A stretch of 64,000 bases of DNA from Deltaproteobacteria bacterium (GTDB lineage Bacteria; Desulfobacterota; Binatia; Binatales; Binataceae), in the NCBI GenBank assembly GCA_021794015.1, contig JAJYRQ010000003.1:54900-118899 (forward strand), given 5' to 3'. Made by a program: the position numbers and the translations under genes. The notes under the pieces are model-generated. The model made no database searches and was not told the origin of the DNA. It was given only the letters and a program-made list of their open reading frames with translations. Positions 4,328 through 61,458 of the stretch are shown here, piece after piece; the first letter of the stretch is position 1, and each line of letters opens with the position of its first letter.

Positions 4328-5250
4328 CTAGGCGGGCCGGACGACGACCTGAAAGCCCGCCATCATGCCGCCGTCTACCGTCAGCGCCGACCCGGTCACG
4401 AAAGCGGCTGCGTCCGAGAGCAGGTAGACCACCGCCCCGCCGACCTCCCCGCTGATATCGGTCAAGGGCATGAGCGCGCCAGCCACGCCGGCCTTATTGA
4501 CCGCACAGTCCAGAAGCAGTCTCAGAAATGGAGCATGGCTGGCGCAAGAAATCAGGGCCGCGCACGAATTGGCACGAGCCACTGCAGCTCGGCAGAGAAA
4601 CGGTCGCTCCCCTGGCCTGCCCGCGGCAGGCCGCCCTCTCCCCGCGGGGAGAGGTAAAAAAGAAGGTGCCTGCCGGCGCCGAGGCGACGGGCGTCGGGAT
4701 TCCCTGCACGCCGTCGGCGCGCGGGAATGACAGAGAAAAGGCGCCGCGCGGGGCGACCACGGAAGGCGGCGCAGGCTCTCGGTTGTCACCCCCGCGCGCG
4801 GCCATTGCATGGCAGCGGGGATGGAGACGGCCTTCGCCGTGGCATTGCGCTCCCGTTGGTCGGGCAAGCTGCCGTGCGGCGAGCACCGCGCGCGGGGGGT
4901 CCCGAGGCCGCGCGCAGCGCGCGAGAGAGCTCGCGCCGAAGGCGCCAGTGAGCGTCCCCCCTTAAATCCCGAGCAAACGCTTATGAGACTGCTTGTAGCC
5001 TTCCCCAGCGCGCAACGGCCGCCTCGACCAGTGCCTGGACCTGCACTGCAGCGGTCACGTCGCACGCGCAGGGGCAGGCTTCGCCGCCGGCTTGTTCGAT
5101 AAGCCGCGCCGTTTGCCGCGCACCCTCGGCGTCAATGTCGGCGGCCACGAGCCTTGCTCCCGAAGCGGCCGTCAGCAGCGCCGCGGCGCGGCCGATACCA
5201 CTGGCCGCGCCGGTGACCGGCGCTGTCTTGCTGCGAAGAGAGATTTCCAT
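4328..5250 (-). pseudogene. Short-chain dehydrogenase/reductase remnant, catalytic middle replaced by repeats
   Basis: An N-terminal fragment lies at 4981-5250 (METISLRSKTAPVTGAASGIGRAA...VEAAVARWGRL). A C-terminal fragment lies at 4328-4510 (...GGAVVYLLSDAAAFVTGSALTVDGGMMAG). The NNAG/Ser/YxxxK core is missing, and the 923-nt span is not a multiple of 3. Confidence 0.7.
4511..4980. repeat. Composite REP/MITE-like repeat cluster
   Basis: Contains the hairpin cctctccccgcggggagagg (4635-4654), gcgcgggaatgacagag (4719-4735) and gttgtcacccccgcgcgcg (4782-4800). 4801-4904 is a near-identical inverted copy of 53344-53446 and 59843-59979. Confidence 0.8.
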
Positions 5251-5312
5251 TGTCTCTGCCTCTCGCCCTGCGCGACCCCGCTTGCGGCAGATCGCGCGCC
5301 TCGCGCCCCGGC

Positions 5313-6158
5313 TTAGGCAAGCCCTGAGCGGTAAGTGGGATAGAGCGGGGCCCAGCCAAGCTCGCGCCGGGCGCGTGCGTTGCTTGCGCGGCACGACGGC
5401 AACACCTCGGCGCTCGCTGCCGACGGTGCAGGCGCGCCCTCGAGCGCGCAGAGGTAATCGAAAAGCACCCGGTAGCGGACCGGTTCGTCGTCGGTTATCA
5501 GAAGCGTCCCTTCGCCCAATTGGGCCTCGAGCGCAGCGACCACGGCGCGCGCCATGTCCGCCACGCGGATAAGAGAGACATACTGCTCGGCGTTGGCCGG
5601 ATATGCCAGCGCTCCGGCGCGCGCCTGGCGGCGCAGGCGCTCGTCCCAGCCGCTTGCGTCGCCGTAGAAAATGCCGCCGCGCAGGATGCACCAGTCAAGC
5701 CCTGAGCGGCCGACCGTCGCTTCCATGTCGGCGGCAGATTGCGTGACTCGGCTGGGGCGCAGCGGCGTCGTCTCGTCAACCCAGCTCTCTCCGTAGCCTG
5801 CGGCGAGATGCGCGATACTTTGCTGGAGGTAGCGCCGAACGCCCAGGCGGCGCGCCTCGCGCACCAAGTTGGCGGTCCCGTCGCGCCGCACCTGGTCGTT
5901 GAGCTCCCAGTTGCGCGCCGGGCCGGGCGGCGGGATGGCCGTGGCCAGGTGCGCAACGGCATCGCAACCCTCGATAACCGGCCCGATCGTCTCGGGGCGC
6001 AAAATGTCGGCCAGCCGCGGCTGAGCGCCGATTCGCCCAAGCTTTGCCGCGGCCTCGGGGCTGCGCGCCACGGCAACCACCTCATGCCGGCATTCGACGA
6101 GCCGCGGGACGACCTGTCTGCCGAGAACGCCGGTTGCGCCGAATACCGCTACGCGCAT
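5313..6158 (-). CDS. NAD(P)-dependent epimerase/dehydratase (atypical SDR, NmrA-like) family protein
   Basis: 281-aa ORF starting MRVAVFGATGVLGRQVVPRL (GxxGxxG Rossmann motif). Confidence 0.75.
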   Translation of the reverse strand: MRVAVFGATGVLGRQVVPRLVECRHEVVAVARSPEAAAKLGRIGAQPRLADILRPETIGPVIEGCDAVAHLATAIPPPGPARNWELNDQVRRDGTANLVREARRLGVRRYLQQSIAHLAAGYGESWVDETTPLRPSRVTQSAADMEATVGRSGLDWCILRGGIFYGDASGWDERLRRQARAGALAYPANAEQYVSLIRVADMARAVVAALEAQLGEGTLLITDDEPVRYRVLFDYLCALEGAPAPSAASAEVLPSCRASNARARRELGWAPLYPTYRSGLA

Positions 6159-6266
6159 CGCCGACCCGCGCTGCGGCCCAGCGTGCCGGGCCGCATCATT
6201 ATGCGGACCTCGCCAGAGCCTGGCCGCCTGGTTTCCCTTTCATGGACCGACGTAGTGCCCTCTGCG

Positions 6267-6806
6267 TCACAGGAGCGGCGCGCGATAAAGCAAGTGTGCG
6301 ACTCCAAGTTCACGCTCGAAGCGCAGCACACTGGCTCGGTCGCACTTGCTCAGTAGCTCACTCACATCGTTGGCTGAACGGAGATTCTGGAATGCTCGCT
6401 TTGGCGCCAGATAGACGACAACCGATTTTCCCCGGCGGATCATGTAGATCACATTGTTCAACGTACCCTTGCTCTCCCCGTCCCATAGCATGAGCCCGTA
6501 TCCAGCGTCGTCAACCATCGCCAGATCTTTCGTCGCGTAGTATGCGAAACCGCGCGCTGCTGTCGGCCCCGCGACCTCGCGGACCGGCCAGCCGGCGATG
6601 TTGTTTCGGCAGTTGCCGGCCATGCAGTGGACGACGGCGTTGCGGTAGGCCTTCTCGGCCAGGTAACGCTGGACGGCCTTGTCGACGCCATTTGCATCGC
6701 CGATAAGGATCGTAAAGTTCTTCTCAATCATCGTGTCGAGCCGACGCTTCACGTCCGCGTTCAAGCGCGACAGGCGTCGAGACCCGGCGACGAAGACCTT
6801 TGTCAT
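6267..6806 (-). CDS. SLOG-superfamily (DUF2493/YspA-like, DprA/LOG fold) small protein
   Basis: 179-aa ORF with VFVAGSRR (res 4-11), ILIGDANGVD (res 33-42) and LWDGESKGTLNN (res 107-118). This resembles the GSR / G-x-x-G-x-D / G-x-GT pattern of SLOG Rossmannoid proteins. Assignment is from memory of the family. Confidence 0.55.
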   Translation of the reverse strand: MTKVFVAGSRRLSRLNADVKRRLDTMIEKNFTILIGDANGVDKAVQRYLAEKAYRNAVVHCMAGNCRNNIAGWPVREVAGPTAARGFAYYATKDLAMVDDAGYGLMLWDGESKGTLNNVIYMIRRGKSVVVYLAPKRAFQNLRSANDVSELLSKCDRASVLRFERELGVAHLLYRAPLL

Positions 6807-7182
6807 CGCGTGTCTGTGTTTTCGTCATGGCGAGCATGTAGACCGCCGCCGCGCCACGACCGAGGAGGTCCTGCGCCACTACTGTTGCCGTAGCGCCCGA
6901 ACGACATAGATCGTCGATGAGCAGGATGCGCTTGCCACCGACAGCGTCGCGGTCGATCTTGAAGGCACCTTGGAGGAGCCTGCTCCGCTGCTGATAGTCG
7001 AAGATGTTCTTCAACTCCGGTGTGTCCTTGATCTTCTTTGCGGTTCTCAGGTTCACCGGCTTCGACAGCCGTGTTCCGATGGCCTTCGCGATCTCGACGA
7101 CGGGCTGATAAGCCAGGCGCCTTCGCGACGCAGGCACCGGGACGATGCGGTGCGGCTGCGGCCTCAGGCAAGGCTCAGCCAT
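6724..7182 (-). CDS. ComF-like phosphoribosyltransferase-domain protein (short form)
   Basis: 152-aa ORF with the PRPP-binding loop KRILLIDDLCRSGATATV. It lacks the N-terminal Zn-finger region of full-length ComF. Its 3' end overlaps the SLOG gene by 83 nt in another frame. Confidence 0.65.
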   Translation of the reverse strand: MAEPCLRPQPHRIVPVPASRRRLAYQPVVEIAKAIGTRLSKPVNLRTAKKIKDTPELKNIFDYQQRSRLLQGAFKIDRDAVGGKRILLIDDLCRSGATATVVAQDLLGRGAAAVYMLAMTKTQTRDDKGLRRRVSTPVALERGREASARHDD

Positions 7183-7712
7183 TCGCGCAGAGCCGAGCGC
7201 GTGGTGGCAAATGCTGTCTCATCCCAGGGAATCTCCTCGGGCGCGAAGAAGCGCGCCTCCAGGGCCTCTGCCGACAGGACCGGGCTTGCGCCGTCGACGC
7301 TTGCCAAGTAGGCAATAACCACGACCGCCGCAGCCTCGGGGTCCGCGTAGACGCCGAGCAGGCGTTCGATGTGAGCCTCGAGGCCAACCTCCTCGCGCGT
7401 TTCGCGCAGCGCGGCTTCCTGGGGAAGCTCGCCGAGATTCACGTAGCCGCCGGGGAAGGTCCATCGCCCGCGCTGCGGCTCAATTGCGCGGCGCAAAAGG
7501 AGCAGCCGGCCCTCGCTGACCGGCAGACATCCGGCAACCAGCTTCGGCCCGCGGAAATCGACGTACCCGCATGCGGAGCAAACGTTGAAGCGTTGGTTCT
7601 CGGAAAGCACCCGGCGAAGCCGCATCGCGCCGGCGCACAGCGGGCAAAAACGCGCCTGCGAAGGATAGCGCCGCTGGACGGCGTGGTCGACCGCTACAGG
7701 ATCATCGTTCAC
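7164..7712 (-). CDS. NUDIX hydrolase with N-terminal zinc ribbon
   Basis: 182-aa ORF with CPLCAGAM...x15...CSACGY (a 4-Cys ribbon). A canonical NUDIX box follows, GGYVNLGELPQEAALRETREEVGL (GX5EX7REUXEEXGU). Confidence 0.85.
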   Translation of the reverse strand: MNDDPVAVDHAVQRRYPSQARFCPLCAGAMRLRRVLSENQRFNVCSACGYVDFRGPKLVAGCLPVSEGRLLLLRRAIEPQRGRWTFPGGYVNLGELPQEAALRETREEVGLEAHIERLLGVYADPEAAAVVVIAYLASVDGASPVLSAEALEARFFAPEEIPWDETAFATTRSALREWLSLA

Positions 7713-7826
7713 CGTTGCTCCCGCCTGGCCCGAACTCTCTGCCGCCGCTCGCCGGCGGCGTTCACGCGCAGCGGCCTGTTGCGTGCGGCGCTGAGCGCTG
7801 CCGGGCCATGCCCGGCCACAGCTATT

Positions 7827-10406
7827 TTACCCCCACAGCGTGCGCCGGCGCAGCAGCGCTTCGGCCACCAGCAGGAGCATCGCGGCCACCACAAAGTATC
7901 GGGTAAGCGAGGTGCGCTCGGCAACTTTGCGCTGCAGGCCGGGCAGCGCGGCGATGCGCGGGTTGAAGCTCCCGTCGGTCATCCGCGCAATCCTTTCCAG
8001 CAGCAGATAATTAGGCTCGGGGCGCGGAATCTCGGCCGCGACGGCCGGGCTAAGGGCATACCCGAGCGGAGCAAGCGCCGTAGTTCTGGCGGCTGCACCC
8101 TGCAGCTCGATCGTGTATACGCCGGGACGGGGCGCAGCGAAGCTTGCGGTAAACTCGCCGGGCGCGCGCTGGTCGAGCGCGACCTGCCGTTTGTCGCCCT
8201 GCGGCATCGTCACCAGGGCGCCCTTAAGTGGCGTTCTGCCGCCGGCCGCATAGTCGATCGCCTCCAGGCGGATTCGCCCCGCGCCGTAGCCGATGGCAAT
8301 GTCGAGCTTGGGGGCGGAAGCAGCGCCAGGCGCAAGCCAATCAAGGATGCCGTTCCACACCGGGCTGAAGACGCCGCGTTCGATCCAGGGGCCCGACCAG
8401 CGCCCGCTTGCGTCGGTGGTGACGGCCAGCGCCCGGCCCTTGCCGTAATGCCAACTTGCGACGATGGGGATGCGACGGCCTGCGTTCTCGGCAAACACGT
8501 CCAGCCTGGCGGCCGGGCGCAGCTTGGTGGCAACGTAACCCTTAAGCGGCGCCAGCGGATGGCCCGCCAGCGCTCCCAACACGCGGTCCGGCTTTACGCT
8601 GTAAGGGACAATGCTGCGCTCGACCAGGGTCTTGCCTGCCGGTTGTGGACGCAGGTCCTGCAGCACCAGTTGCGGCAACTCCTTGGGGTTGTCGGTCTGA
8701 TAGAGCGCGCCGCCGCCGTACTGCACAATCGATTTGAGCAACGGCAGATTCGGCTCGCGGCCAATGGCGATTGCCGAGACGGTGATATCGCCCTCGCGCC
8801 GCATCCGGGAGACCAGATCGTAGTACATCTGCTCGGTGCCGCCGGTGCGGCCGTCGGTGAGGATCACGACGTGTCGCAAGGAGGCTTTGGCCCCGGCAAG
8901 CATCCGGCCCGCCATTTCCAGCGCCGGGAGCAGGTAGGTTTTCCCGCGCGCTCTCAGGCGCTCGACCATCTGGTCGAAGTAGCCACGGCTTTGCCCCAGC
9001 GGCTCGAGCGGTACGACCACAAAGGGCTGCGAATCGAAACCTACCACCGAAACCAGGTCATCGTCCTTGAAGCTCTTGGTGACAGTGCGCGCCGCAGCCT
9101 TGGCGTACGCAAGCTTGTCGTTGCGCCCCATCGAGCCGGACTTGTCAATCAACAGCACCACGGCGTGGCGCGCCACCTCCACCCGGGGCGGCTCCATCAC
9201 GACCGGCAGCACTTGGGCCACGGGGCTGCCGGCCCAACCGCCCAGGCCGAAACTGCGGTCGCCGCCGACCATCACCAACGAGCCGCCCGCCTTGACGTAG
9301 GCGGCCAGCGCGGCCTGGGCGCCCGCGCTAAAGTCGGCGCGCGCGACGTTGTTCAGGATGACGATGCGATAATCGGCGGCGCGCAAGTCCAGGCCTCGGC
9401 CGCGCGGGTCAAGTACCGTGGGCACGAAACCGAGCCGGCGCGCCACGGTTTCGAGCAACGAAGCGGCGCGCGCGCTGCGCGTGAGAATCAACGCATGGCG
9501 GCGCGCGCCAACGCCCACAAGCCGTTCCAGCACGTCATCCTCGGGCCAGGCGTCGCGCGCGCGGTCGGCCGCGGCAAAGCGCACGCGGTAGGAGCTGAGC
9601 CCGGCTTTTTGCGCGCGAACCACGAAGACTTCGCGCTGCTCCCCCGCCCCAACTACCACCGGCCGCACCTCGAGCAGGCGGCCGTTCTCATAAAGCGAGA
9701 GCGTTCCGCGCACCGCCACCGGGTTAAAGTTGGCCAGCGTTGCCGAAAGCGTAAACCCCGCCCCCTCAGCCACTGCGCCGGGCGCCTCCAGCGCCGCCAC
9801 TGCGACGTCGGCGAAGCCGCGCGCGCCCGGCGGCGTCAGGATGTAAACCCGCCTCTGCGCCGCGCGCAGGGCTCGCGCCGCGGCCAACGCGTCGCCGCCA
9901 TTCTCCCAGCCGTCGGTCACCAGCACCAGCGGCTGCGACGGGTCGGCCGTTTGCTGCAACCCCTGACGCAGCGCCGCTTCAAGATCGGTGCGCTGGGGCA
10001 GGCACGGAGCGCACCCGCCGTCGCTTAGCAGAAGGGCCAGCCCCCGGCCAACCGTCGTCAGCACCGGACGGCCGGCGAAAACGGATGCCGGATCGGAGTC
10101 GCCCAACCCAAGCTGTTCTTGCAAGAGCCGCCCCATCCACCGGCGCATCTCTCCCGTTACGCTGTTCGAAGCGTCCAGCATCACGAGCGCGCTGCGCGCC
10201 TCGATCATTCGCGCCAGCGCCGGCCCCAGCGTCGCGACTCCCAGCAACAGCACCACCAGGCTGCGCAAAACCGGCACCCCAAGACGCCGCGAGAGCCCGG
10301 CCGACCAGAGACCTGCCAGCAACGGCAGGGTCGCCGCGCCCGCCAGGATATAGAGGCGTACGGGGTGCGCCCAGAAGGTCTGCCGAAGAACTGCGCTCAA
10401 CTCCAT
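7827..10406 (-). CDS. Membrane-anchored von Willebrand factor A (vWA) domain protein, Bat-operon type
   Basis: 859-aa ORF with N-terminal TM helices and a vWA MIDAS context, VVLLIDKSGSMGRND ... ILTDGRTGG. It lies directly downstream of the BatA-like gene. Confidence 0.75.
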   Translation of the reverse strand: MELSAVLRQTFWAHPVRLYILAGAATLPLLAGLWSAGLSRRLGVPVLRSLVVLLLGVATLGPALARMIEARSALVMLDASNSVTGEMRRWMGRLLQEQLGLGDSDPASVFAGRPVLTTVGRGLALLLSDGGCAPCLPQRTDLEAALRQGLQQTADPSQPLVLVTDGWENGGDALAAARALRAAQRRVYILTPPGARGFADVAVAALEAPGAVAEGAGFTLSATLANFNPVAVRGTLSLYENGRLLEVRPVVVGAGEQREVFVVRAQKAGLSSYRVRFAAADRARDAWPEDDVLERLVGVGARRHALILTRSARAASLLETVARRLGFVPTVLDPRGRGLDLRAADYRIVILNNVARADFSAGAQAALAAYVKAGGSLVMVGGDRSFGLGGWAGSPVAQVLPVVMEPPRVEVARHAVVLLIDKSGSMGRNDKLAYAKAAARTVTKSFKDDDLVSVVGFDSQPFVVVPLEPLGQSRGYFDQMVERLRARGKTYLLPALEMAGRMLAGAKASLRHVVILTDGRTGGTEQMYYDLVSRMRREGDITVSAIAIGREPNLPLLKSIVQYGGGALYQTDNPKELPQLVLQDLRPQPAGKTLVERSIVPYSVKPDRVLGALAGHPLAPLKGYVATKLRPAARLDVFAENAGRRIPIVASWHYGKGRALAVTTDASGRWSGPWIERGVFSPVWNGILDWLAPGAASAPKLDIAIGYGAGRIRLEAIDYAAGGRTPLKGALVTMPQGDKRQVALDQRAPGEFTASFAAPRPGVYTIELQGAAARTTALAPLGYALSPAVAAEIPRPEPNYLLLERIARMTDGSFNPRIAALPGLQRKVAERTSLTRYFVVAAMLLLVAEALLRRRTLWG

Positions 10407-14139: not shown

Positions 14140-15615
14140 CTAACGGATGAGGTCCTGGTAGCGCGGCGGGATATTCTGGCGCGCTCTCAGCGCCAGTTCC
14201 GGCTCGCCTGAGCCAAGGCCGGCCCGCGTGTACGGAGTCTTTGCCGTCGCTCTCTCGCTCCCTGCCATCAAGCGGCCTCCTGCCCCTGCCGACAGCACCC
14301 CGGCGGGGAGCTGAAAGGTGACGTAACGCGCGTCCTGGACGGCAAGCTTGGGGCCATGCTCGCCCGGCCGGTAGAACCTGGCGGGGTTGCCCGGCGAAGG
14401 AAACTCGCCCGGACGGGTGTCGCCGAGGGAGCCTCCTTTGCCGCGCTGCGGCTGGCGGTTTTTCGCTTCGTCGCTTGCCGAGCGGCCCCGGCTGGCGGGC
14501 TTGTCACCGGCTGCGCTTTGTTGCTTGCCTGCCTGCCCGGGCCGCTCAAGTTGGTTACGCGACTTCCCGCTGGCGGCGGCTGCCTGAGCCGTCTGCCGGC
14601 CGGGGTTATCCGGGTTTTGCGCGGTTGGGATTTTCTCGCCCGAGCCGGTCTCGAGTTGAGCCTTGCTGGGCGAAGCTTCGTTTTCGAGCCGCTTTATGTC
14701 ATTGGCGGCTGCGGCGCCGGGCCGGTTGCCCTCGCCCCTTCCTGGCCCGGCCCCCTGCCCGCCTGAGCCGGTGCCTGTCCCTTGCCCTTGTCCTGCCCCT
14801 TGGCCGTGGCTGCCGGAGTACCCCGCCGGATTGCGGCCTGACACGCCTTGGGCAAAGCCGGTGGACTGATGGGGCGCCGCGCTGCGCGGTTCAAGCCCGG
14901 CTAATTGCGTCGGCTTCTCGGCGCGGGGCGCCAACGTCCTGACCAGTAGCTTGGCGGCAGCCTTGGCACCGGGCGCGAGCGCCTTGGCGACCGCCGACGA
15001 GGCGTCTTTCACTTGATGCGCCAACTGGGCGAGCGGGGCGCCCGCCCGCGACCACAGAAGCTGCGGGACAAGTCCGGCCCCCAACAGAAGCGCCGCCGCC
15101 AAAACGACGGCGCCCGCGTATGGCAGACCGCGCCGCAGTGTCAGCCCGGCGCGCAGCGCAAATGCCCGGCGGAGATCGAGGCGGTCAAGCCGGGCTGCGA
15201 CCCGCCCGCGCAGCAATGCGAAAAAAGGGCTTTGCCGAGCCTCTCGAGCCGCACGCGAGGGATCGGTCAGCACCGCGAAGGTAAGCACCTCCTGGTGGGC
15301 ATCCAGCAGCTCGTCCAATTCCCGCCCGGCATCCGCGAAGCCGCCTGCCCGCGATGCCTGTCGCCACGCCAGTGCTAGCGCCGTAGCCGCGGCGGCCAGG
15401 ACCAGACCCCAAAGCAGTTCCTCGACATAGGCGATAAAGCGCGGCCTCGCCAGCGCCTGCGCCAGCAGCGCGCCTCTCCCGCCAAGCCATCGTATCGCCA
15501 GCGCAATGGCCGCCGCGCTAAGCGCCAGCGGCGCGCTCTTAAGCAGCGTTCGGGCTGCCCCGACGCGCGCCAACCGCCGGCGCGTCTGCTCTATAACCTG
15601 CTCGGGCTCAACCAT
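14140..15615 (-). CDS. Membrane protein with long Gly/Gln/Ala-rich disordered region (first gene of the MoxR operon)
   Basis: 491-aa ORF with N-terminal TM helices, a low-complexity centre (GQGAGQGQGTGTGSGGQGAG) and a C-terminal IPPRYQDLIR tail. Its stop abuts the moxR start. Confidence 0.55.
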   Translation of the reverse strand: MVEPEQVIEQTRRRLARVGAARTLLKSAPLALSAAAIALAIRWLGGRGALLAQALARPRFIAYVEELLWGLVLAAAATALALAWRQASRAGGFADAGRELDELLDAHQEVLTFAVLTDPSRAAREARQSPFFALLRGRVAARLDRLDLRRAFALRAGLTLRRGLPYAGAVVLAAALLLGAGLVPQLLWSRAGAPLAQLAHQVKDASSAVAKALAPGAKAAAKLLVRTLAPRAEKPTQLAGLEPRSAAPHQSTGFAQGVSGRNPAGYSGSHGQGAGQGQGTGTGSGGQGAGPGRGEGNRPGAAAANDIKRLENEASPSKAQLETGSGEKIPTAQNPDNPGRQTAQAAAASGKSRNQLERPGQAGKQQSAAGDKPASRGRSASDEAKNRQPQRGKGGSLGDTRPGEFPSPGNPARFYRPGEHGPKLAVQDARYVTFQLPAGVLSAGAGGRLMAGSERATAKTPYTRAGLGSGEPELALRARQNIPPRYQDLIR

Positions 15616-20974: not shown

Positions 20975-21800
20975 GCTGGCCGGCCTGCCATCCGCGTACT
21001 TGGCTGCTGCGCCGGGCGCCCCTCCGGCCAGCGCAATCCGGGATTCCTCGCGCGCGGCCACTGCGTGGCGGCTGGCTCGGGTGTCGAAAGGTCGCGTAAC
21101 GCGGCCTCGCCATCTGCTGCCATGCAATGGCTTGGCGCACCAGGGGTCCCGGCGCGGTCCGGGCAGGCGCGGCCACCGCCTGCCAATCACAGAGACCGCG
21201 CCGCGTGGTGTCAGCCGAATCCCGCCCCCCTCACCTTGCTCCTCTCCCCCCAAGGGGAGAGGAAGAGAAAGCAGAGCACGCGTCCCCGACCAGCGGGAGC
21301 GCAATGCCGCGTAACGCGGCCTCGCCATCTGCTGCCATGCAATGGCCTGGCGCACCAGGGGTCCCGGCGCGGTCCGGGCAGGCGCGGCCACCGCCTGCCA
21401 ATCACAGAGACCGCGCCGCGTGGTGTCGGCCGAATCCCGCCCCCCTCACCTTGCTCCTCTCCCCCCAAGGGGAGAGGAGCGGAAAAGAGGGCGCTCACCC
21501 CACTTTTGTCATTCCCGCGCGCGGCGCTGACCGCGCGACCGCGTCTCGACCAGCGGGAGCGCAATACCCAGTGCGTTTTCCCTGCTGCCACGCAGTGGCC
21601 GCGCGCGAGGCCTGCCCCGAGCCCTGCCGAGGGGAATCCCGGGCTCCGCTGCCGCAGCGAACGCAAGACCCCAGCATTCTTCGCGCGGCAGACGCCGTCT
21701 TCGGCGTCCCTTCGGCAGGCTCATGGGGCAGGCTCTAAGGGCCGTCGAGGGACCCTCTGCGCACGCGGGAATGACAGAGGTGGCGCGTCTTTGCGCAACG
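20975..21800. repeat. Intergenic array of REP/MITE-like modules
   Basis: Contains modules shared with 4511-4980 and the prophage spacers: ctgccatgcaatggc, ccagcgggagcgcaatgcc, ttgtcattcccgcgcg, cgcgggaatgacagag, and the hairpin ctctccccccaaggggagagg. Confidence 0.8.
21093..21478. repeat. Tandem direct duplication, 171-bp unit with 215-bp period
   Basis: By eye, 21093-21263 and 21308-21478 differ at only 2 positions (cttggc/cctggc and tcagcc/tcggcc). Confidence 0.9.
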
Positions 21801-37192: not shown

Positions 37193-37939
37193 ATGCCGGC
37201 ACGCGGGCGAACCGGGTTTGTATCAATGGCCGCGCCGGCGCTGCTGGTCCTGGTAGCTGCCGCCGGATGCGCCGGGCAGAAGCCGCCTCCGTCCGGGCCG
37301 GCCGCCGGACGCTCGATCGTTCACGTCGTCCGCCCCGGCGAGACCATCTACAGCATCGCTCAGCGCTACGGGGTCGGCGCGCGCCGACTGGCCGCGGCCA
37401 ATCGTCTCGGTGACGGGCAGAGCCTGCGCGTCGGCCAGCGGCTGGTGATTCCGCTCGGCGCGCCGGCCCCGGCGCGGGCCGCCAGGTTGGGGACGCCACG
37501 CGCGCCCCCGGTGCATCACGAGTTCGCCTGGCCGATTGCGGGCGGCCGTTTAGCCTCCGGCTTCGGCATCCGCAACGGAGCGATGCATCACGGCATCGAC
37601 ATCGACGCGCCCGCCGGCACGCCGGTGCGTGCCGCCGAGGCCGGCGTGGTGAGCTACGCGGGCCGGATGCGCGGCTACGGCAACGTCATTATTGTCCGTC
37701 ACGCCGGCGGTTTCGCCACCGTTTACGCCCACAACCGGGCCAACCTGGTCCGCAGCGGCCAGGCCGTGCGGCGCGGCCAGACGCTGGCGCGCGTCGGCAG
37801 CACGGGAAGAGCGACCGGGGCCAACCTCCATTTCGAGGTGCGCTACCGCAACGTCGCATACGATCCGCTGACCTGCCTGCCTGCGCCCGAACCGTCGCCG
37901 CCGCATTTTGCCCGCGCCGCAGAGCCGCTGTATCCTTGA
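37193..37939 (+). CDS. LysM-domain M23 peptidase lipoprotein (NlpD-like)
   Basis: Signal peptide plus lipobox LVAAAGC, LysM (HVVRPGETIYSIAQRYGV), and M23 motifs (HHGIDIDAPAGTPVRAAEAG ... TGANLHFEV). The pcm-nlpD synteny is classical. Confidence 0.82.
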   Translation: MPARGRTGFVSMAAPALLVLVAAAGCAGQKPPPSGPAAGRSIVHVVRPGETIYSIAQRYGVGARRLAAANRLGDGQSLRVGQRLVIPLGAPAPARAARLGTPRAPPVHHEFAWPIAGGRLASGFGIRNGAMHHGIDIDAPAGTPVRAAEAGVVSYAGRMRGYGNVIIVRHAGGFATVYAHNRANLVRSGQAVRRGQTLARVGSTGRATGANLHFEVRYRNVAYDPLTCLPAPEPSPPHFARAAEPLYP

Positions 37940-38000
37940 AGAGGCGAGTTGGGGCCACACGCCGCCGCGCCTTCGCAGCACAGGCCCCGGAGCACAAGCC

Positions 38001-38519
38001 ATGATGCCTGACCAACTGAAGCGCCTGGTCAGGGAAATCCCCGATTTCCCCAAGCCTGGCATATTGTTCCGCGACATCACCCCGCTGCTAAGCGACGGCC
38101 AAGCCTTGCGTTCCCTGGTCGATCTTCTCGCCGACCCGTTCAGAGGCAAGGTGGATATCGTGGTCGGCATCGAATCGCGCGGCTTCATAGTCGGAGCGCC
38201 CGTCGCCTACCGCCTCGGCGTCGGTTTGGCCATCGCGCGCAAGCCTGGCAAACTTCCCTTCAGCACGATAATGCAGAGCTACCAACTCGAGTACGGGTCG
38301 GCCTCGCTCGAGATTCATCGCGACGGCCTGGCACCGGCGATGCGCGTGCTCGTGGTGGACGACCTGCTGGCTACGGGCGGCACTGCCGAGGCAGCGCTGC
38401 GGCTGGTAAGCAAGCTGGGCGCCGAACCCGTAGGCTGCGCCTTCGTCATCGAACTGAGCCAGCTTAAGGGACGGCAGCGGCTGGCGCCGACCGAATGTTT
38501 CGCGCTCATCAAGTACTAA
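38001..38519 (+). CDS. apt: Adenine phosphoribosyltransferase
   Basis: IPDFPKPGILFRDITPLL ... GIESRGF ... VLVVDDLLATGGTA. Start set at the internal ATG 38001. Confidence 0.9.
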   Translation: MMPDQLKRLVREIPDFPKPGILFRDITPLLSDGQALRSLVDLLADPFRGKVDIVVGIESRGFIVGAPVAYRLGVGLAIARKPGKLPFSTIMQSYQLEYGSASLEIHRDGLAPAMRVLVVDDLLATGGTAEAALRLVSKLGAEPVGCAFVIELSQLKGRQRLAPTECFALIKY

Positions 38520-53319: not shown

Positions 53320-53343
53320 CTGCGCGCCGGCACATCGCGGCGC

Positions 53344-53468
53344 CGGGACCCCTCGCGCGCGGCGCTGACCTCACGGCAGCTTGCCCGACCAACGGGAGCG
53401 CAATGCCGCGCCGAAGGCCGTCTCCACCCCGCTGCCATGCAATGGCCGCACGCGGGGTGACAGAAAAA
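53344..53468. repeat. REP/MITE-like element copy (family R1)
   Basis: cgggacccctcgcgcgcgg...cacggcagcttgcccgaccaacgggagcgcaatgcc...ccgaaggccgtctcc...gctgccatgcaatggc. Other copies are at 4801-4904 (inverted) and 59843-59979. Confidence 0.85.
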
Positions 53469-59822: not shown

Positions 59823-59842
59823 CCGATGCGCTCATGCGGCCC

Positions 59843-59979
59843 CGGGACCCCTCGCGCGCGGTGCTCGCCGCACGGCAGCGTGCCCGACCTGCCTGCCGCG
59901 CCGGGCGCGGCGCAGGCAGGCCAACGGGAGCGCAATGCCACGGCGAAGGCCGTCTCCGTCCCCGCTGCCATGCAATGGC
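59843..59979. repeat. REP/MITE-like element copy (family R1) carrying an extra 32-nt imperfect palindrome
   Basis: Matches 53344-53446 and the reverse complement of 4801-4904. 59890-59921 (tgcctgccgcgccgggcgcggcgcaggcaggc) is present only in this copy. Confidence 0.85.
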
Positions 59980-60027
59980 CGCGCGGCAGGGAAATCCGGA
60001 GCCGCGTAGGAGTAAGGAGAGAAGGAC

Positions 60028-61098: not shown

Positions 61099-61458
61099 AT
61101 GCACGCGTGGCTGATAATCGCGCTGTCCCTGATGCTCGCCTACGCGCTCGGATACATGGTCGGCGGATTCGCCGAGGCCGCGCGGCAGGTCGAGCGCGAG
61201 ACAGCCGCGCTTGCCCGGCGCTGCGCGGGGGCGGCGGGAAAAGAGCCGCCGCGCGCCACCACAGCGTCATCCCGAGCGAGCGCTGCGCGAGTCGAGGGAA
61301 CCCGGGCCCCCTCGCGCGCGCCAGGCCATTGCATGGCAGCGGGGAAGAAGAGGGCCAGCATCGCAGCATCGCGCTCCCGCTGGTCGGGCGAGCTGCCGTG
61401 CGGCGAGCACCGCGCGGGGGCGACCGAAAAAGGGGCGACGGACGAGGACGCGCAATGA
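61099..61458 (+). CDS. Small membrane protein; 3' part of ORF reads through a repeat element
   Basis: The N-terminus MHAWLIIALSLMLAYALGYMVGGF is a TM helix. From about 61257 the ORF is made of REP sequence, so the true C-terminus and expression are uncertain. Confidence 0.3.
   Translation: MHAWLIIALSLMLAYALGYMVGGFAEAARQVERETAALARRCAGAAGKEPPRATTASSRASAARVEGTRAPSRAPGHCMAAGKKRASIAASRSRWSGELPCGEHRAGATEKGATDEDAQ
61257..61420. repeat. REP/MITE-like cluster between chaperone and tape measure genes
   Basis: 61257-61343 is nearly identical to 52234-52320. 61323-61420 is a divergent inverted R1-like copy (gccattgcatggcagcgggg ... gcgctcccgctggtcgggcgagctgccgtgcggcgagcaccgcgcggggg). Confidence 0.8.

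What the first reader, a model, noticed from the sequence alone, without database searches (positions are those of the whole stretch)
6267..7712. Compact NUDIX - PRTase - SLOG three-gene island: candidate nucleotide-centred conflict/signalling system
Three co-directional genes have overlapping ends. The first is a NUDIX hydrolase with an N-terminal 4-Cys zinc ribbon and a canonical NUDIX box. The second is a short ComF-like phosphoribosyltransferase with an intact PRPP loop (RILLIDDLCRSGATA) but no Zn-finger N-terminus of its own. The third is a 179-aa SLOG/DUF2493-like Rossmannoid protein (GSRR, GDANGVD, WDGESKGT).

The island is AT-richer than its flanks. Two 60-nt lines at 6361-6480 each gave 32/60 G+C by hand, against 42/60 for a line in the adjacent vWA gene. 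That suggests horizontal acquisition.

All three domains bind or process PRPP, NAD, ADP-ribose or related nucleotides. SLOG domains act as nucleotide-signal sensors in Thoeris ThsA and as N-glycosidases in LOG. From memory, comparative-genomic work on nucleotide-centric conflict systems predicted associations of SLOG with Nudix and PRTase. I know of no experimentally characterised defence system with exactly this trio. No classical effector (nuclease, TIR, SIR2, pore) is present, so any activity would have to act through nucleotide synthesis, depletion or modification.

Alternative reading: ComFC and DprA (also SLOG fold) are both competence proteins, so this could be a degenerate ssDNA-handling pair.
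Basis: partly seen in the sequence, partly recalled or inferred. Interest (0 to 1): 0.72.

Follow-up and report, generated by a model that had tools for sequence, protein, structure and literature searches.

The report
Decayed PRTase–SLOG toxin–antitoxin pair beside NUDIX
The proposed three-gene system is really a native NUDIX gene sitting next to a horizontally acquired two-gene module related to known phage-defence toxin–antitoxin pairs, and the module's presumed toxin gene has lost its front 40%.

Summary
The three minus-strand ORFs exist and their domain assignments hold: a Zn-ribbon NUDIX, a ComF-like PRTase and a SLOG protein. They are not one system.

**NUDIX is native.** In the closest orthologous loci it is the last gene of a MoxR–DUF58–BatA–vWA cluster, with no PRTase or SLOG gene nearby. 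Its G+C (0.670) matches the window mean.

**The conserved unit is a pair.** It consists of a ~200-aa PRTase followed by a ~180-aa SLOG gene, usually joined by an ATGA overlap. The pair occurs in many phyla.
- Of 66 PRTase-anchored loci that could be evaluated, all 66 have SLOG downstream.
- Of 77 evaluable SLOG-anchored loci, 25 have a degraded or missing PRTase.
- The NUDIX family was detected in 1 of 80 SLOG-anchored loci, 0 of 80 PRTase-anchored loci and 0 of 68 viral loci.

**The window's PRTase is a remnant.** It lacks the N-terminal ~85 residues and abuts the NUDIX stop codon. The 83-nt overlap with SLOG comes from a 1-nt deletion haplotype.

**Closest known systems.** The PRTase matches the PsyrT and ShosT toxin profiles. 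The best structural match of the SLOG model is the antitoxin ShosA.

**Best reading.** This is a decayed, minimal ShosTA/PsyrTA-like toxin–antitoxin (defence) module with an orphan SLOG gene. The locus itself is of low interest. The uncharacterised minimal pair family is of modest interest.

The parts
6267..6806 (-). Intact 179-aa SLOG-fold (minimal DprA/ShosA-like) gene; presumed antitoxin, orphaned here
   Evidence: ORF. There are 2321 homologues at 90% clustering and 2218 clusters at 50% identity. All positions that are invariant in the family alignment, which includes this sequence, are therefore present in it (A2). The AF2 model has pLDDT 88.5. The top PDB matches are 8zva ShosA and 4ljl HpDprA, E 5e-4. 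Predicted pI is 9.8.
6807..7163 (-). 5'-truncated remnant of a ComF/PsyrT-like PRTase gene. It corresponds to about residues 86-198 of the 198-200-aa full-length protein and keeps the PPi loop (IVPVP) and the PRPP loop (LLIDDLCRSGAT). The mechanical ORF is 7182..6724.
   Evidence: tblastn with full-length partners gives real homology only from IVPVP onward. A DNA alignment places the junction at the NUDIX stop codon. PADLOC PsyrT 1.2e-16, ShosT 2.6e-7. The missing N-terminus holds invariant residues (A3/A4), a beta-meander and two helices.
6807..6808 (-). Site of a 1-nt deletion (CGCAGATGA to CGCG-ATGA). It removes the PRTase stop codon of the ATGA stop/start overlap and extends the ORF 83 nt into the SLOG gene.
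   Evidence: Alignment with L009/L010 and more distant relatives. It is a real haplotype, shared by independent assemblies L017, L018, L019 and L022.
7164..7712 (-). Zn-ribbon NUDIX hydrolase gene. It is the native last gene of the MoxR-DUF58-BatA-vWA cluster and a neighbour of the module, not a part of it.
   Evidence: Pfam NUDIX 1.4e-20. It is full length against its orthologues. Orthologous loci L106 and L107 keep the cluster and NUDIX without PRTase/SLOG. G+C is 0.670, equal to the window mean.
6267..7146 (.). Low-G+C segment (0.601) that coincides with SLOG plus the PRTase remnant
   Evidence: Lowest 0.2% of equal-sized sliding windows in the 64-kb window (profile).

Best explanation
The locus is a native gene followed by a relic of a mobile two-gene module.

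**The native gene.** The NUDIX gene is the terminal gene of a MoxR/DUF58/BatA/vWA cluster. The evidence shows no functional link to the two genes downstream.

**The module when intact.** A ~200-aa ComF/PurF-like PRTase is followed by a ~180-aa SLOG protein. The two are usually coupled by an ATGA stop/start overlap.

**Inferred mechanism of the intact module.** This is by analogy with ShosTA, PsyrTA/RqlHI and the 'DprA+PRTase' system. The PRTase is the toxin: it uses PRPP to phosphoribosylate an unknown acceptor, which perturbs nucleotide metabolism or replication. The SLOG protein is a type-IV-like antitoxin that counteracts the damage, with or without binding the toxin directly. The route could be ssDNA/RecA, as in ShosA, or action on the phosphoribosylated product.

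**State in this genome.** The module sits immediately after the NUDIX stop codon. Its PRTase gene has lost about 255 nt of 5' coding sequence (about 85 residues). In this haplotype it has also lost its stop codon. The toxin is therefore most likely dead, and the SLOG gene is an intact orphan antitoxin.

**Shown versus inferred.**
- Shown: the gene structures, the truncation, the synteny patterns and the fold assignments.
- Inferred: the toxin and antitoxin roles, the loss of activity, and the biochemical mechanism.
For: **The pair, not the trio, is conserved.**
- Of 80 SLOG-anchored loci from GTDB species in many phyla, 51 have an intact PRTase directly upstream. In 43 of those the junction is an [A/G]TGA overlap.
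- All 66 evaluable PRTase-anchored metagenome loci have a full SLOG gene downstream.
- The NUDIX family appears in 1/80, 0/80 and 0/68 loci.

**The asymmetry is the one expected of a toxin and an antitoxin.** SLOG persists with a degraded or absent PRTase in 25 of 77 evaluable loci: 8 truncated at the 5' end, 9 split, 1 truncated at the 3' end and 7 with none (frameshifted examples L188 and L189). The reverse case was never seen.

**The truncation is real.** The N-terminal part that is lost carries invariant residues (W, H, S, G, G, G, K) and the structural elements E20-49, H51-62 and H65-82.

**NUDIX is native.** Orthologous synteny without the module, 24 same-species contigs with the same arrangement, and G+C.

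**Links to known systems.**
- PRTase against PsyrT 1e-16 to 1e-20 and ShosT 1e-7 to 1e-10.
- The top fold match of the SLOG model is ShosA, 8zva.
- The PRTase fold matches HpComF (TMq 0.62), PurF and ShosT.

**Experimental precedent.** ShosT is a PRPP-dependent toxin, and ShosA is a DprA-like antitoxin that does not bind the toxin (PMC11961720, PMC12961424). A DprA+PRTase system protects against T7 and lambda (PMC9122126).

**Mobile and conflict context in relatives.**
- Neighbours include PIN/FitA, HicA, MazE, transposases, Shedu, AIPR and conjugation genes.
- This SLOG domain occurs fused to Abi_alpha and HEPN_AbiU2.
Against: - No experiment exists on this minimal family. The toxin and antitoxin roles rest on homology and on the asymmetry of gene loss.
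- SLOG proteins of this family do not reach the PADLOC ShosA or PsyrA profiles: 0.021 for the window protein, and no hit for three relatives. The structural similarity is modest (TMq 0.57, 13% identity).
- The retained PRTase fragment shows no relaxed constraint. dN/dS against the closest full-length relative is 0.24, compared with 0.29 for SLOG.
- The fragment keeps every highly conserved residue of its part, and it keeps an ORF with an ATG in both haplotypes. Residual function cannot be excluded.
- Some 'split' PRTases in long-read MAGs may be sequencing errors.
Confidence: 0.72

Rival explanations
1. The truncated PRTase is still a working, shorter toxin or enzyme, so PRTase fragment plus SLOG remains a functional two-gene module in this species. 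The fragment could be translated by coupling to the NUDIX stop codon 16 nt downstream of its ATG.
For: - The fragment keeps the PPi loop, the PRPP loop and all strongly conserved positions of its part.
- dN/dS is 0.24, with no sign of relaxation.
- The ORF with an ATG is present in both haplotypes and in many independent assemblies.
Against: - It lacks about 85 residues, 43% of the protein. These include seven invariant positions, a three-stranded beta-meander and two helices, one of which directly precedes core strand beta-1.
- The window haplotype has also lost the stop codon and the ATGA coupling.
- Independent truncations at many other break points (residues 65 to 175), frameshifts and complete losses in other genomes show that PRTase decay is the common fate.
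- A low dN/dS is equally expected from a recent truncation.
Confidence: 0.12
2. One reading: NUDIX, PRTase and SLOG form one three-gene nucleotide-signalling or depletion system. The NUDIX would functionally replace the N-terminal pyrophosphatase-type domain seen in ShosT.
For: - The three genes are co-directional and overlapping.
- ShosT fuses a PPase domain to its PRTase domain, and the PPase was proposed to pull the reaction forward (PMC11961720). A neighbouring pyrophosphohydrolase is therefore not absurd.
- The arrangement is stable in 24 contigs of this species.
Against: - There is no co-conservation. The NUDIX family appears in 1/80, 0/80 and 0/68 related loci.
- NUDIX orthologues stay with the MoxR-Bat cluster and lack PRTase/SLOG. 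More distant NUDIX homologues sit in unrelated contexts.
- NUDIX has host-like G+C, unlike the module.
- The juxtaposition coincides with a deletion break point that destroys the PRTase N-terminus.
- The missing N-terminus is part of the ComF-type fold, not a PPase domain.
Confidence: 0.05
3. In the intact module the SLOG protein is a ligand sensor or effector, as in Thoeris ThsA, and the PRTase makes the nucleotide signal. This would be a signalling pair rather than a toxin-antitoxin pair.
For: - The same SLOG domain is fused N-terminally to the abortive-infection effectors Abi_alpha and HEPN_AbiU2 in some proteins. It is fused to NADAR, DUF4326 and DUF488-N3a in others.
- SLOG domains are known nucleotide sensors (PMC9503650).
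Against: - The 179-aa protein has no effector domain.
- PRTase never occurs without SLOG (66/66), whereas SLOG often survives without PRTase (25/77). This fits a protective partner, not a sensor that needs its signal generator.
- In every tested relative (ShosTA, PsyrTA, RqlHI) the PRTase protein is the toxin (PMC11961720, PMC12961424, PMC9122126).
Confidence: 0.08
4. A degenerate competence pair: ComFC plus DprA, handling ssDNA during transformation.
For: - ComF subfamily match 9e-12 and GntX 3e-9.
- Public sources name the homologues 'ComF family protein'.
- The best TM-score of the PRTase model is to H. pylori ComF.
- The SLOG model matches DprA structures.
Against: - Scores are far below the family cut-offs: 45 against 233.6 bits for ComF, and 15 against 191 bits for dprA.
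- There is no conserved Cys zinc finger in the full-length PRTases.
- The SLOG protein has no SAM domain or C-terminal DprA domains.
- The pair is patchily spread over many phyla and sits next to TA genes, transposases and defence genes. None of the 25 Pfam families listed for the neighbours is a competence family, and no listed family matched more than two neighbours.
Confidence: 0.03

Closest known systems
ShosTA (Shosta; the 'DprA+PRTase' system found in a P2-like phage hotspot is a similar pair): type IV toxin-antitoxin phage-defence system
   Same: - A two-gene unit: a PRTase toxin with a PRPP-binding DD loop plus a Rossmann/SLOG DprA-like antitoxin.
- The PRTase matches the ShosT profile at 1e-7 to 1e-10 and the ShosT structure 8zvd at E 1e-4.
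- The top structural match of the SLOG model is ShosA, 8zva.
- The basic pI of 9.8 is compatible with DNA binding.
   Different: - There is no N-terminal PPase-like domain on the PRTase (about 200 aa against 424 aa).
- The SLOG protein is 179 aa, with no SAM domain and no long C-terminal tail (ShosA is longer: the crystallised construct is residues 1-313, without the C-terminal loop).
- The SLOG proteins do not reach the PADLOC ShosA profile.
- The window copy has a truncated PRTase.
PsyrTA / RqlHI (RecQ-like helicase-PRTase toxin plus DprA-like antitoxin)
   Same: This is the best profile match of the PRTase: the PsyrT C-terminal 115-150 residues at 1.2e-16 for the window and about 1e-20 for full-length relatives. 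A DprA-like Rossmann-fold partner gene is also part of the system.
   Different: There is no helicase domain; the PRTase stands alone. The SLOG partner is much smaller and has no PsyrA profile hit.
ComFC and DprA of natural competence
   Same: The PRTase fold is closest in TM-score to H. pylori ComF (0.62) and carries the ComF-type motifs. The SLOG protein shares the GSR and GxAxGxD motifs and the fold of the DprA Rossmann domain.
   Different: - Scores are far below the family cut-offs.
- There is no zinc finger, and no SAM or winged-helix domains.
- The two genes are fused into a mobile, overlapping pair with a patchy distribution. There is no competence context.
Retron type III and Ophion PRTase effectors
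   Same: Defence-associated PRTases are reported to form one clade together with the ShosT and PsyrT PRTases (bioRxiv 10.1101/2025.09.30.679545). There is a weak hit to PADLOC PRTase_III-A.
   Different: There is no reverse transcriptase or ncRNA, and no rSAM or PHP partner. The partner here is a SLOG protein.

Membership tests
Proposed NUDIX-PRTase-SLOG three-gene system | The three genes are co-conserved (syntenic) across genomes | tested here: not met
   The NUDIX-family HMM hit 1 of 80 SLOG-anchored loci (2 kb away, opposite strand), 0 of 80 PRTase-anchored loci and 0 of 68 viral loci. NUDIX orthologues lack PRTase/SLOG. Only same-species contigs share the trio.
ShosTA | Toxin with a PRTase domain that has PRPP-binding loops (DD motif) | tested here: met
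   PADLOC ShosT 2.6e-7 for the window and about 1e-10 for full-length relatives. LLIDDLCRSGAT is present. Fold match to 8zvd/8zvc, E 1e-4. The window copy retains only the C-terminal ~113 residues.
ShosTA | N-terminal Rossmann PPase-like domain fused to the PRTase (ShosT residues 1-164) | tested here: not met
   Full-length relatives are 191-202 aa with a short beta-meander and two helices before the core. No second domain is present.
ShosTA | Antitoxin with a DprA-like Rossmann (SLOG) domain | tested here: inconclusive
   The top structural hit is ShosA 8zva (E 5e-4, TMq 0.57, 13% identity). The PADLOC ShosA profile gives only 0.021 for the window and no hit for three relatives.
ShosTA | N-terminal SAM domain and unstable C-terminal tail of ShosA | tested here: not met
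   The 179-aa protein is a single Rossmannoid domain plus two short C-terminal helices.
ShosTA | Toxicity of the PRTase, neutralisation by the partner, phage defence | not testable with these tools
   Only indirect support: PRTase never occurs without SLOG (66/66), while SLOG often occurs without an intact PRTase (25/77).
PsyrTA / RqlHI | PRTase domain of the PsyrT type | tested here: met
   PADLOC PsyrT 1.2e-16 (profile positions 574-688 of 689) for the window, and 1e-17 to 1e-21 for four of five full-length relatives (3.5e-11 for the fifth).
PsyrTA / RqlHI | RecQ-like SF2 helicase fused N-terminally to the PRTase | tested here: not met
   The PRTase proteins are about 200 aa. Matches cover only the last ~150 positions of the 689-position profile.
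ComFC (competence) | Reaches the ComF family score and has the N-terminal 4-Cys zinc finger | tested here: not met
   TIGR00201 gives 45.3 bits against a cut-off of 233.55. The N-terminal consensus of full-length homologues has no conserved Cys. The window copy lacks the N-terminus altogether.
DprA (competence) | Reaches the dprA equivalog or Pfam DNA_processg_A score; SAM plus Rossmann (plus winged-helix) architecture | tested here: not met
   TIGR00732 gives 15.1 against 191 bits, and PF02481 gives 15 against 29.6 bits. The protein is a single domain.
SLOG superfamily (fold level) | Rossmannoid fold similar to LOG, DprA, YpsA, ThsA-SLOG and TRPM-SLOG, with a Gly-rich loop after strand 1 | tested here: met
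   Foldseek hits, each with probability 0.91 to 1.00, to ShosA, HpDprA, YvdD/LOG, TM1055, YpsA, ThsA and TRPM2/5. GSR, GDANGxD and WDGxSKGT are invariant.
Nudix hydrolase with Zn ribbon | Nudix box GX5EX7REUXEEXGU and an N-terminal 4-Cys ribbon | tested here: met
   PF00293 1.4e-20; PF14803 at 24.1 bits against a 25.6-bit cut-off. C23, C26, C45, C48 and the box residues are invariant among orthologues. The substrate was not determined.
Intact type I PRTase (window copy) | Complete fold, including the elements before core strand beta-1 | tested here: not met
   The window ORF aligns only from IVPVP (residue ~86-89 of the full-length protein). E20-49, H51-62 and H65-82 of the full-length model are absent.

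The most novel reading that the evidence does not exclude
The minimal PRTase(~200 aa)-SLOG(~180 aa) pair is a distinct, uncharacterised toxin-antitoxin/defence family with at least 2,200 SLOG clusters at 50% identity. In it the small SLOG protein would neutralise the toxin enzymatically or by sequestration, for example as a LOG-like phosphoribohydrolase that reverses the PRTase product. That differs from the ssDNA/RecA route of ShosA. The standalone or NADAR/DUF4326-fused SLOG homologues seen on viral contigs would then act as antitoxin mimics, that is, as anti-defence proteins. The window would hold only a decayed copy of this family.
Probability: 0.15. Interest if true: 0.6.

Novelty: new variant of a known kind. 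Interest (0 to 1): 0.3.

Why it matters
**For this locus: little.**
- The apparent three-gene operon is an accident of insertion and deletion next to a housekeeping NUDIX gene, and the presumed toxin is broken.
- It shows how overlapping co-directional ORFs with thematically related domains can mimic a system.

**More generally.**
- A compact PRTase-SLOG pair related to ShosTA and PsyrTA is widespread in soil and sediment bacteria.
- PADLOC profiles do not capture the SLOG partner: in the PADLOC library used here, no SLOG protein of this family reached its ShosA or PsyrA profiles.
- The pair shows a clear loss asymmetry that predicts which partner is toxic.
- Testing it could show what the minimal requirements of PRTase toxins and DprA-like antitoxins are.

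Tried and rejected
- **Empty-site search in metagenomes.** A metagenome scan anchored on the vWA C-terminus found nothing. Contexts of the closest NUDIX orthologues replaced it.
- **Burroughs et al. 2015 (NAR, nucleotide-centric systems).** The paper is not held. Whether that work already predicted this exact pair or the trio could not be checked.
- **dN/dS of the PRTase fragment against SLOG.** There was no difference (0.24 against 0.29), so it cannot separate a recent truncation from retained function.
- **The Tyr-to-Cys change in the PRPP loop (DDLCRSGAT).** It is not diagnostic, because that column is conserved in fewer than 80% of the full-length homologues.
- **Promoter and terminator scan of 5200-8000.** No promoter-like site was found, and terminator-like sites were at chance level.
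- **tRNA and Rfam scans.** No tRNA or tmRNA that could mark an integration site, and no Rfam match.
- **A conserved third gene.** Among 129 nearest-neighbour ORFs from 35 loci, no Pfam family recurred in more than 2 and no PADLOC family in more than 4.
- **A second PRTase hit in the window.** The weak tblastn hit at 38304-38480 lies in an ORF that is probably the housekeeping adenine PRTase (assigned from its sequence, no family search). It is unrelated.
- **An apparent extension of PRTase homology to 7248.** The extension crosses a stop codon and is not real.
Full report
**Observation.**
- NUDIX, 7712..7164, 182 aa, GTG start.
- A PRTase ORF, 7182..6724, 152 aa.
- A SLOG ORF, 6806..6267, 179 aa.

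Pfam gives NUDIX 1.4e-20 and a near-threshold Zn_ribbon_Nudix match. It gives only a weak Pribosyltran hit for the second protein and sub-threshold DprA/YAcAr hits for the third. NCBIfam gives ComF and GntX matches far below their cut-offs for the PRTase. PADLOC was more informative. The PRTase matches the C-terminus of PsyrT (1.2e-16) and ShosT (2.6e-7), the two known PRTase toxins. The SLOG protein touches ShosA only at 0.021.

The G+C dip is real but covers only PRTase+SLOG: 0.601, the lowest 0.2% of equal-sized windows. NUDIX is 0.670 and the window mean is 0.673.

**The conserved unit is a pair.** The SLOG protein has 2321 homologues, at 69-82% identity among the 120 best hits listed. They come mostly from soil metagenomes, and the few that carry a source name are acidobacterial MAGs. 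In every non-identical context examined, the SLOG gene is preceded by a 191-200-aa gene that overlaps its start by 4 nt. There is no NUDIX in those contexts. The flanks carry PIN/FitA, HicA and MazE genes and transposases. Translating the upstream genes shows full-length PRTases whose C-terminal 113 residues align with the window ORF.

I then quantified this in both directions.
- *SLOG-anchored.* A scan of GTDB species genomes with a SLOG alignment returned 80 loci from Acidobacteriota, Planctomycetota, Nitrospinota, Chloroflexota, Cyanobacteriota, Proteobacteria, Latescibacterota and others. HMM searches of their ORFs gave these results:
  - 51 loci have an intact PRTase directly upstream, 43 of them with an [A/G]TGA stop/start overlap, and 1 is near-intact.
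  - 9 are split by a frameshift or stop, 8 are truncated at the 5' end and 1 at the 3' end.
  - 7 have no PRTase, and 3 cannot be evaluated.
  - The NUDIX family appears in 1 of the 80, 2 kb away on the other strand.
- *PRTase-anchored.* In 80 metagenome loci, all 66 with enough downstream sequence carry a full SLOG gene, and none carries the NUDIX.

The nearest-neighbour genes of 35 loci share no recurrent family. They are a mix of housekeeping, conjugation (TrwB, TraH) and defence genes (Shedu, AIPR, HNH, MTases, MADS components).

**NUDIX is native.** Its homologues are generic ~185-190-aa Zn-ribbon Nudix proteins, at most 62% identical. The two closest orthologues examined (L106, L107) sit in the same gene order as in the window: MoxR, DUF58, BatA-like, an ~860-aa vWA gene, then NUDIX. 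They are followed by SmpB, or by a TIR-domain gene on the other strand, and not by PRTase/SLOG. A more distant homologue lies in an unrelated metabolic context. The window NUDIX is full length against these orthologues. Only contigs of the same species (99.5-100% identical) share the NUDIX-PRTase-SLOG-epimerase arrangement.

**The window's PRTase is a remnant.**
- tblastn and DNA alignment show that homology to full-length genes starts at IVPVP, immediately after the NUDIX stop codon. The first 12 codons of the ORF are unrelated sequence that overlaps the NUDIX 3' end.
- The missing ~85 residues contain seven invariant positions. In an AlphaFold model of the closest full-length homologue (pLDDT 92.4) they form a three-stranded beta-meander and two helices that precede core strand beta-1.
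- That model matches PurF's PRTase domain, H. pylori ComF (TMq 0.62) and ShosT.
- The 83-nt overlap with SLOG is caused by a 1-nt deletion that removes the ATGA stop. It is a genuine haplotype, shared by at least four independent assemblies. A second haplotype (L009, L010) keeps ATGA and encodes a 126-aa ORF.
- The retained fragment shows no relaxed constraint (dN/dS 0.24 against 0.29 for SLOG) and keeps all conserved residues of its part. The truncation is therefore either recent or tolerated. I cannot tell which.
- Other genomes show independent frameshifts (L188, L189) and truncations at many other break points.

**The SLOG protein.** The AlphaFold model (pLDDT 88.5) is a single Rossmannoid domain. 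Its best PDB matches are ShosA (8zva) and H. pylori DprA, followed by TRPM SLOG domains, LOG/YvdD, TM1055, YpsA and ThsA. The invariant motifs GSR, GDANGxD and WDGxSKGT resemble DprA motifs more than the LOG motifs. That comparison rests on my own knowledge of those motifs and is an inference. The predicted pI is 9.8.

The family has 2218 clusters at 50% identity. Some members are fused to Abi_alpha, HEPN_AbiU2, NADAR, DUF4326 or DUF488-N3a, which places the domain in conflict systems. Viral contigs carry 68 distant standalone relatives without a PRTase.

**Mechanism.**
- *Shown.* The pair is a tightly coupled, horizontally mobile unit. The PRTase never occurs without SLOG, whereas SLOG often outlives the PRTase.
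- *From the literature.* In ShosTA the PRTase protein is a PRPP-dependent toxin that disturbs purine metabolism and replication. The DprA-like partner neutralises it without binding it, through ssDNA and RecA (PMC11961720, PMC12961424). DprA+PRTase pairs protect against T7 and lambda, and DprA homologues are the antitoxins of shosTA, psyrTA and rqlHI (PMC9122126).
- *Inferred.* The minimal pair works in the same general way, with the PRTase as toxin and SLOG as a type-IV-like antitoxin. In this genome the toxin is inactivated by 5' truncation, which leaves an orphan antitoxin next to an unrelated NUDIX gene.

**Comparison and novelty.** The module is not a member of ShosTA in the strict sense, because it has no PPase domain, no SAM domain and no ShosA profile match. 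It is not PsyrTA, because it has no helicase. It is not ComFC/DprA, because scores are far below the cut-offs, there is no zinc finger and there is no competence context. It is best described as a minimal variant of the PRTase plus DprA-like toxin-antitoxin/defence kind. I could not check whether Burroughs et al. 2015 already described it.

**Verdict.** The ORFs are real but the trio is not a system. Interest in the locus is low. The minimal pair family deserves a modest follow-up.

Noticed in passing
window 4784-4912; also 53336-53462, 59836-59985, 61315-61420, 21514-21610, 21285-21353: A ~105-130-nt G+C-rich repeated element with CGCGCG-type ends occurs at least five or six times in the window at 74-91% identity. 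It may be MITE/REP-like. It has no Rfam match.
   Followed up: partly
window ~4328-5260 (minus strand), insertion ~4564-4905: The short-chain dehydrogenase gene downstream of the epimerase is split into N- and C-terminal fragments. This haplotype carries a ~342-nt insertion that is absent from the sister haplotype L009 and contains one copy of the repeat above. In the same-species contig L018 an IS110 transposase is called a short distance downstream of the N-terminal SDR fragment, where that contig diverges from the window.
   Followed up: partly
L107:7621-8703 (opposite strand, directly after the NUDIX orthologue): In a related genome, the position that holds PRTase/SLOG in the window holds a CAP12-PCTIR TIR-domain gene. 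The site downstream of the MoxR-Bat-NUDIX cluster may be a variable spot that collects defence-type genes.
   Followed up: no
P0295, P0317, P0357, P0309, P0361; viral loci L190-L257: The same SLOG domain is fused to DUF4326, NADAR and DUF488-N3a, and to the abortive-infection effectors HEPN_AbiU2 and Abi_alpha. 68 viral contigs carry distant standalone relatives with no PRTase nearby, which could be phage counter-defence proteins.
   Followed up: partly
L081:1848-2108 and 5624-5995: In an alphaproteobacterial MAG the PRTase gene is separated into an N-terminal piece and a C-terminal piece about 3.5 kb apart. An insertion probably disrupts the toxin gene, while the SLOG gene stays intact.
   Followed up: no
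window 14140-15615 (minus), especially 14250-15000: There is strong negative AT skew (-0.41 to -0.44) over a low-complexity region rich in Gly, Gln, Ala and Pro. The region lies in the 491-aa ORF upstream of MoxR.
   Followed up: no
window 37908-38519 (+): An ORF that is probably the housekeeping adenine phosphoribosyltransferase (VLVVDDLLATGGT); this is judged from the sequence alone, without a family search. It explains the weak second PRTase hit in the window and is unrelated to the module.
   Followed up: yes
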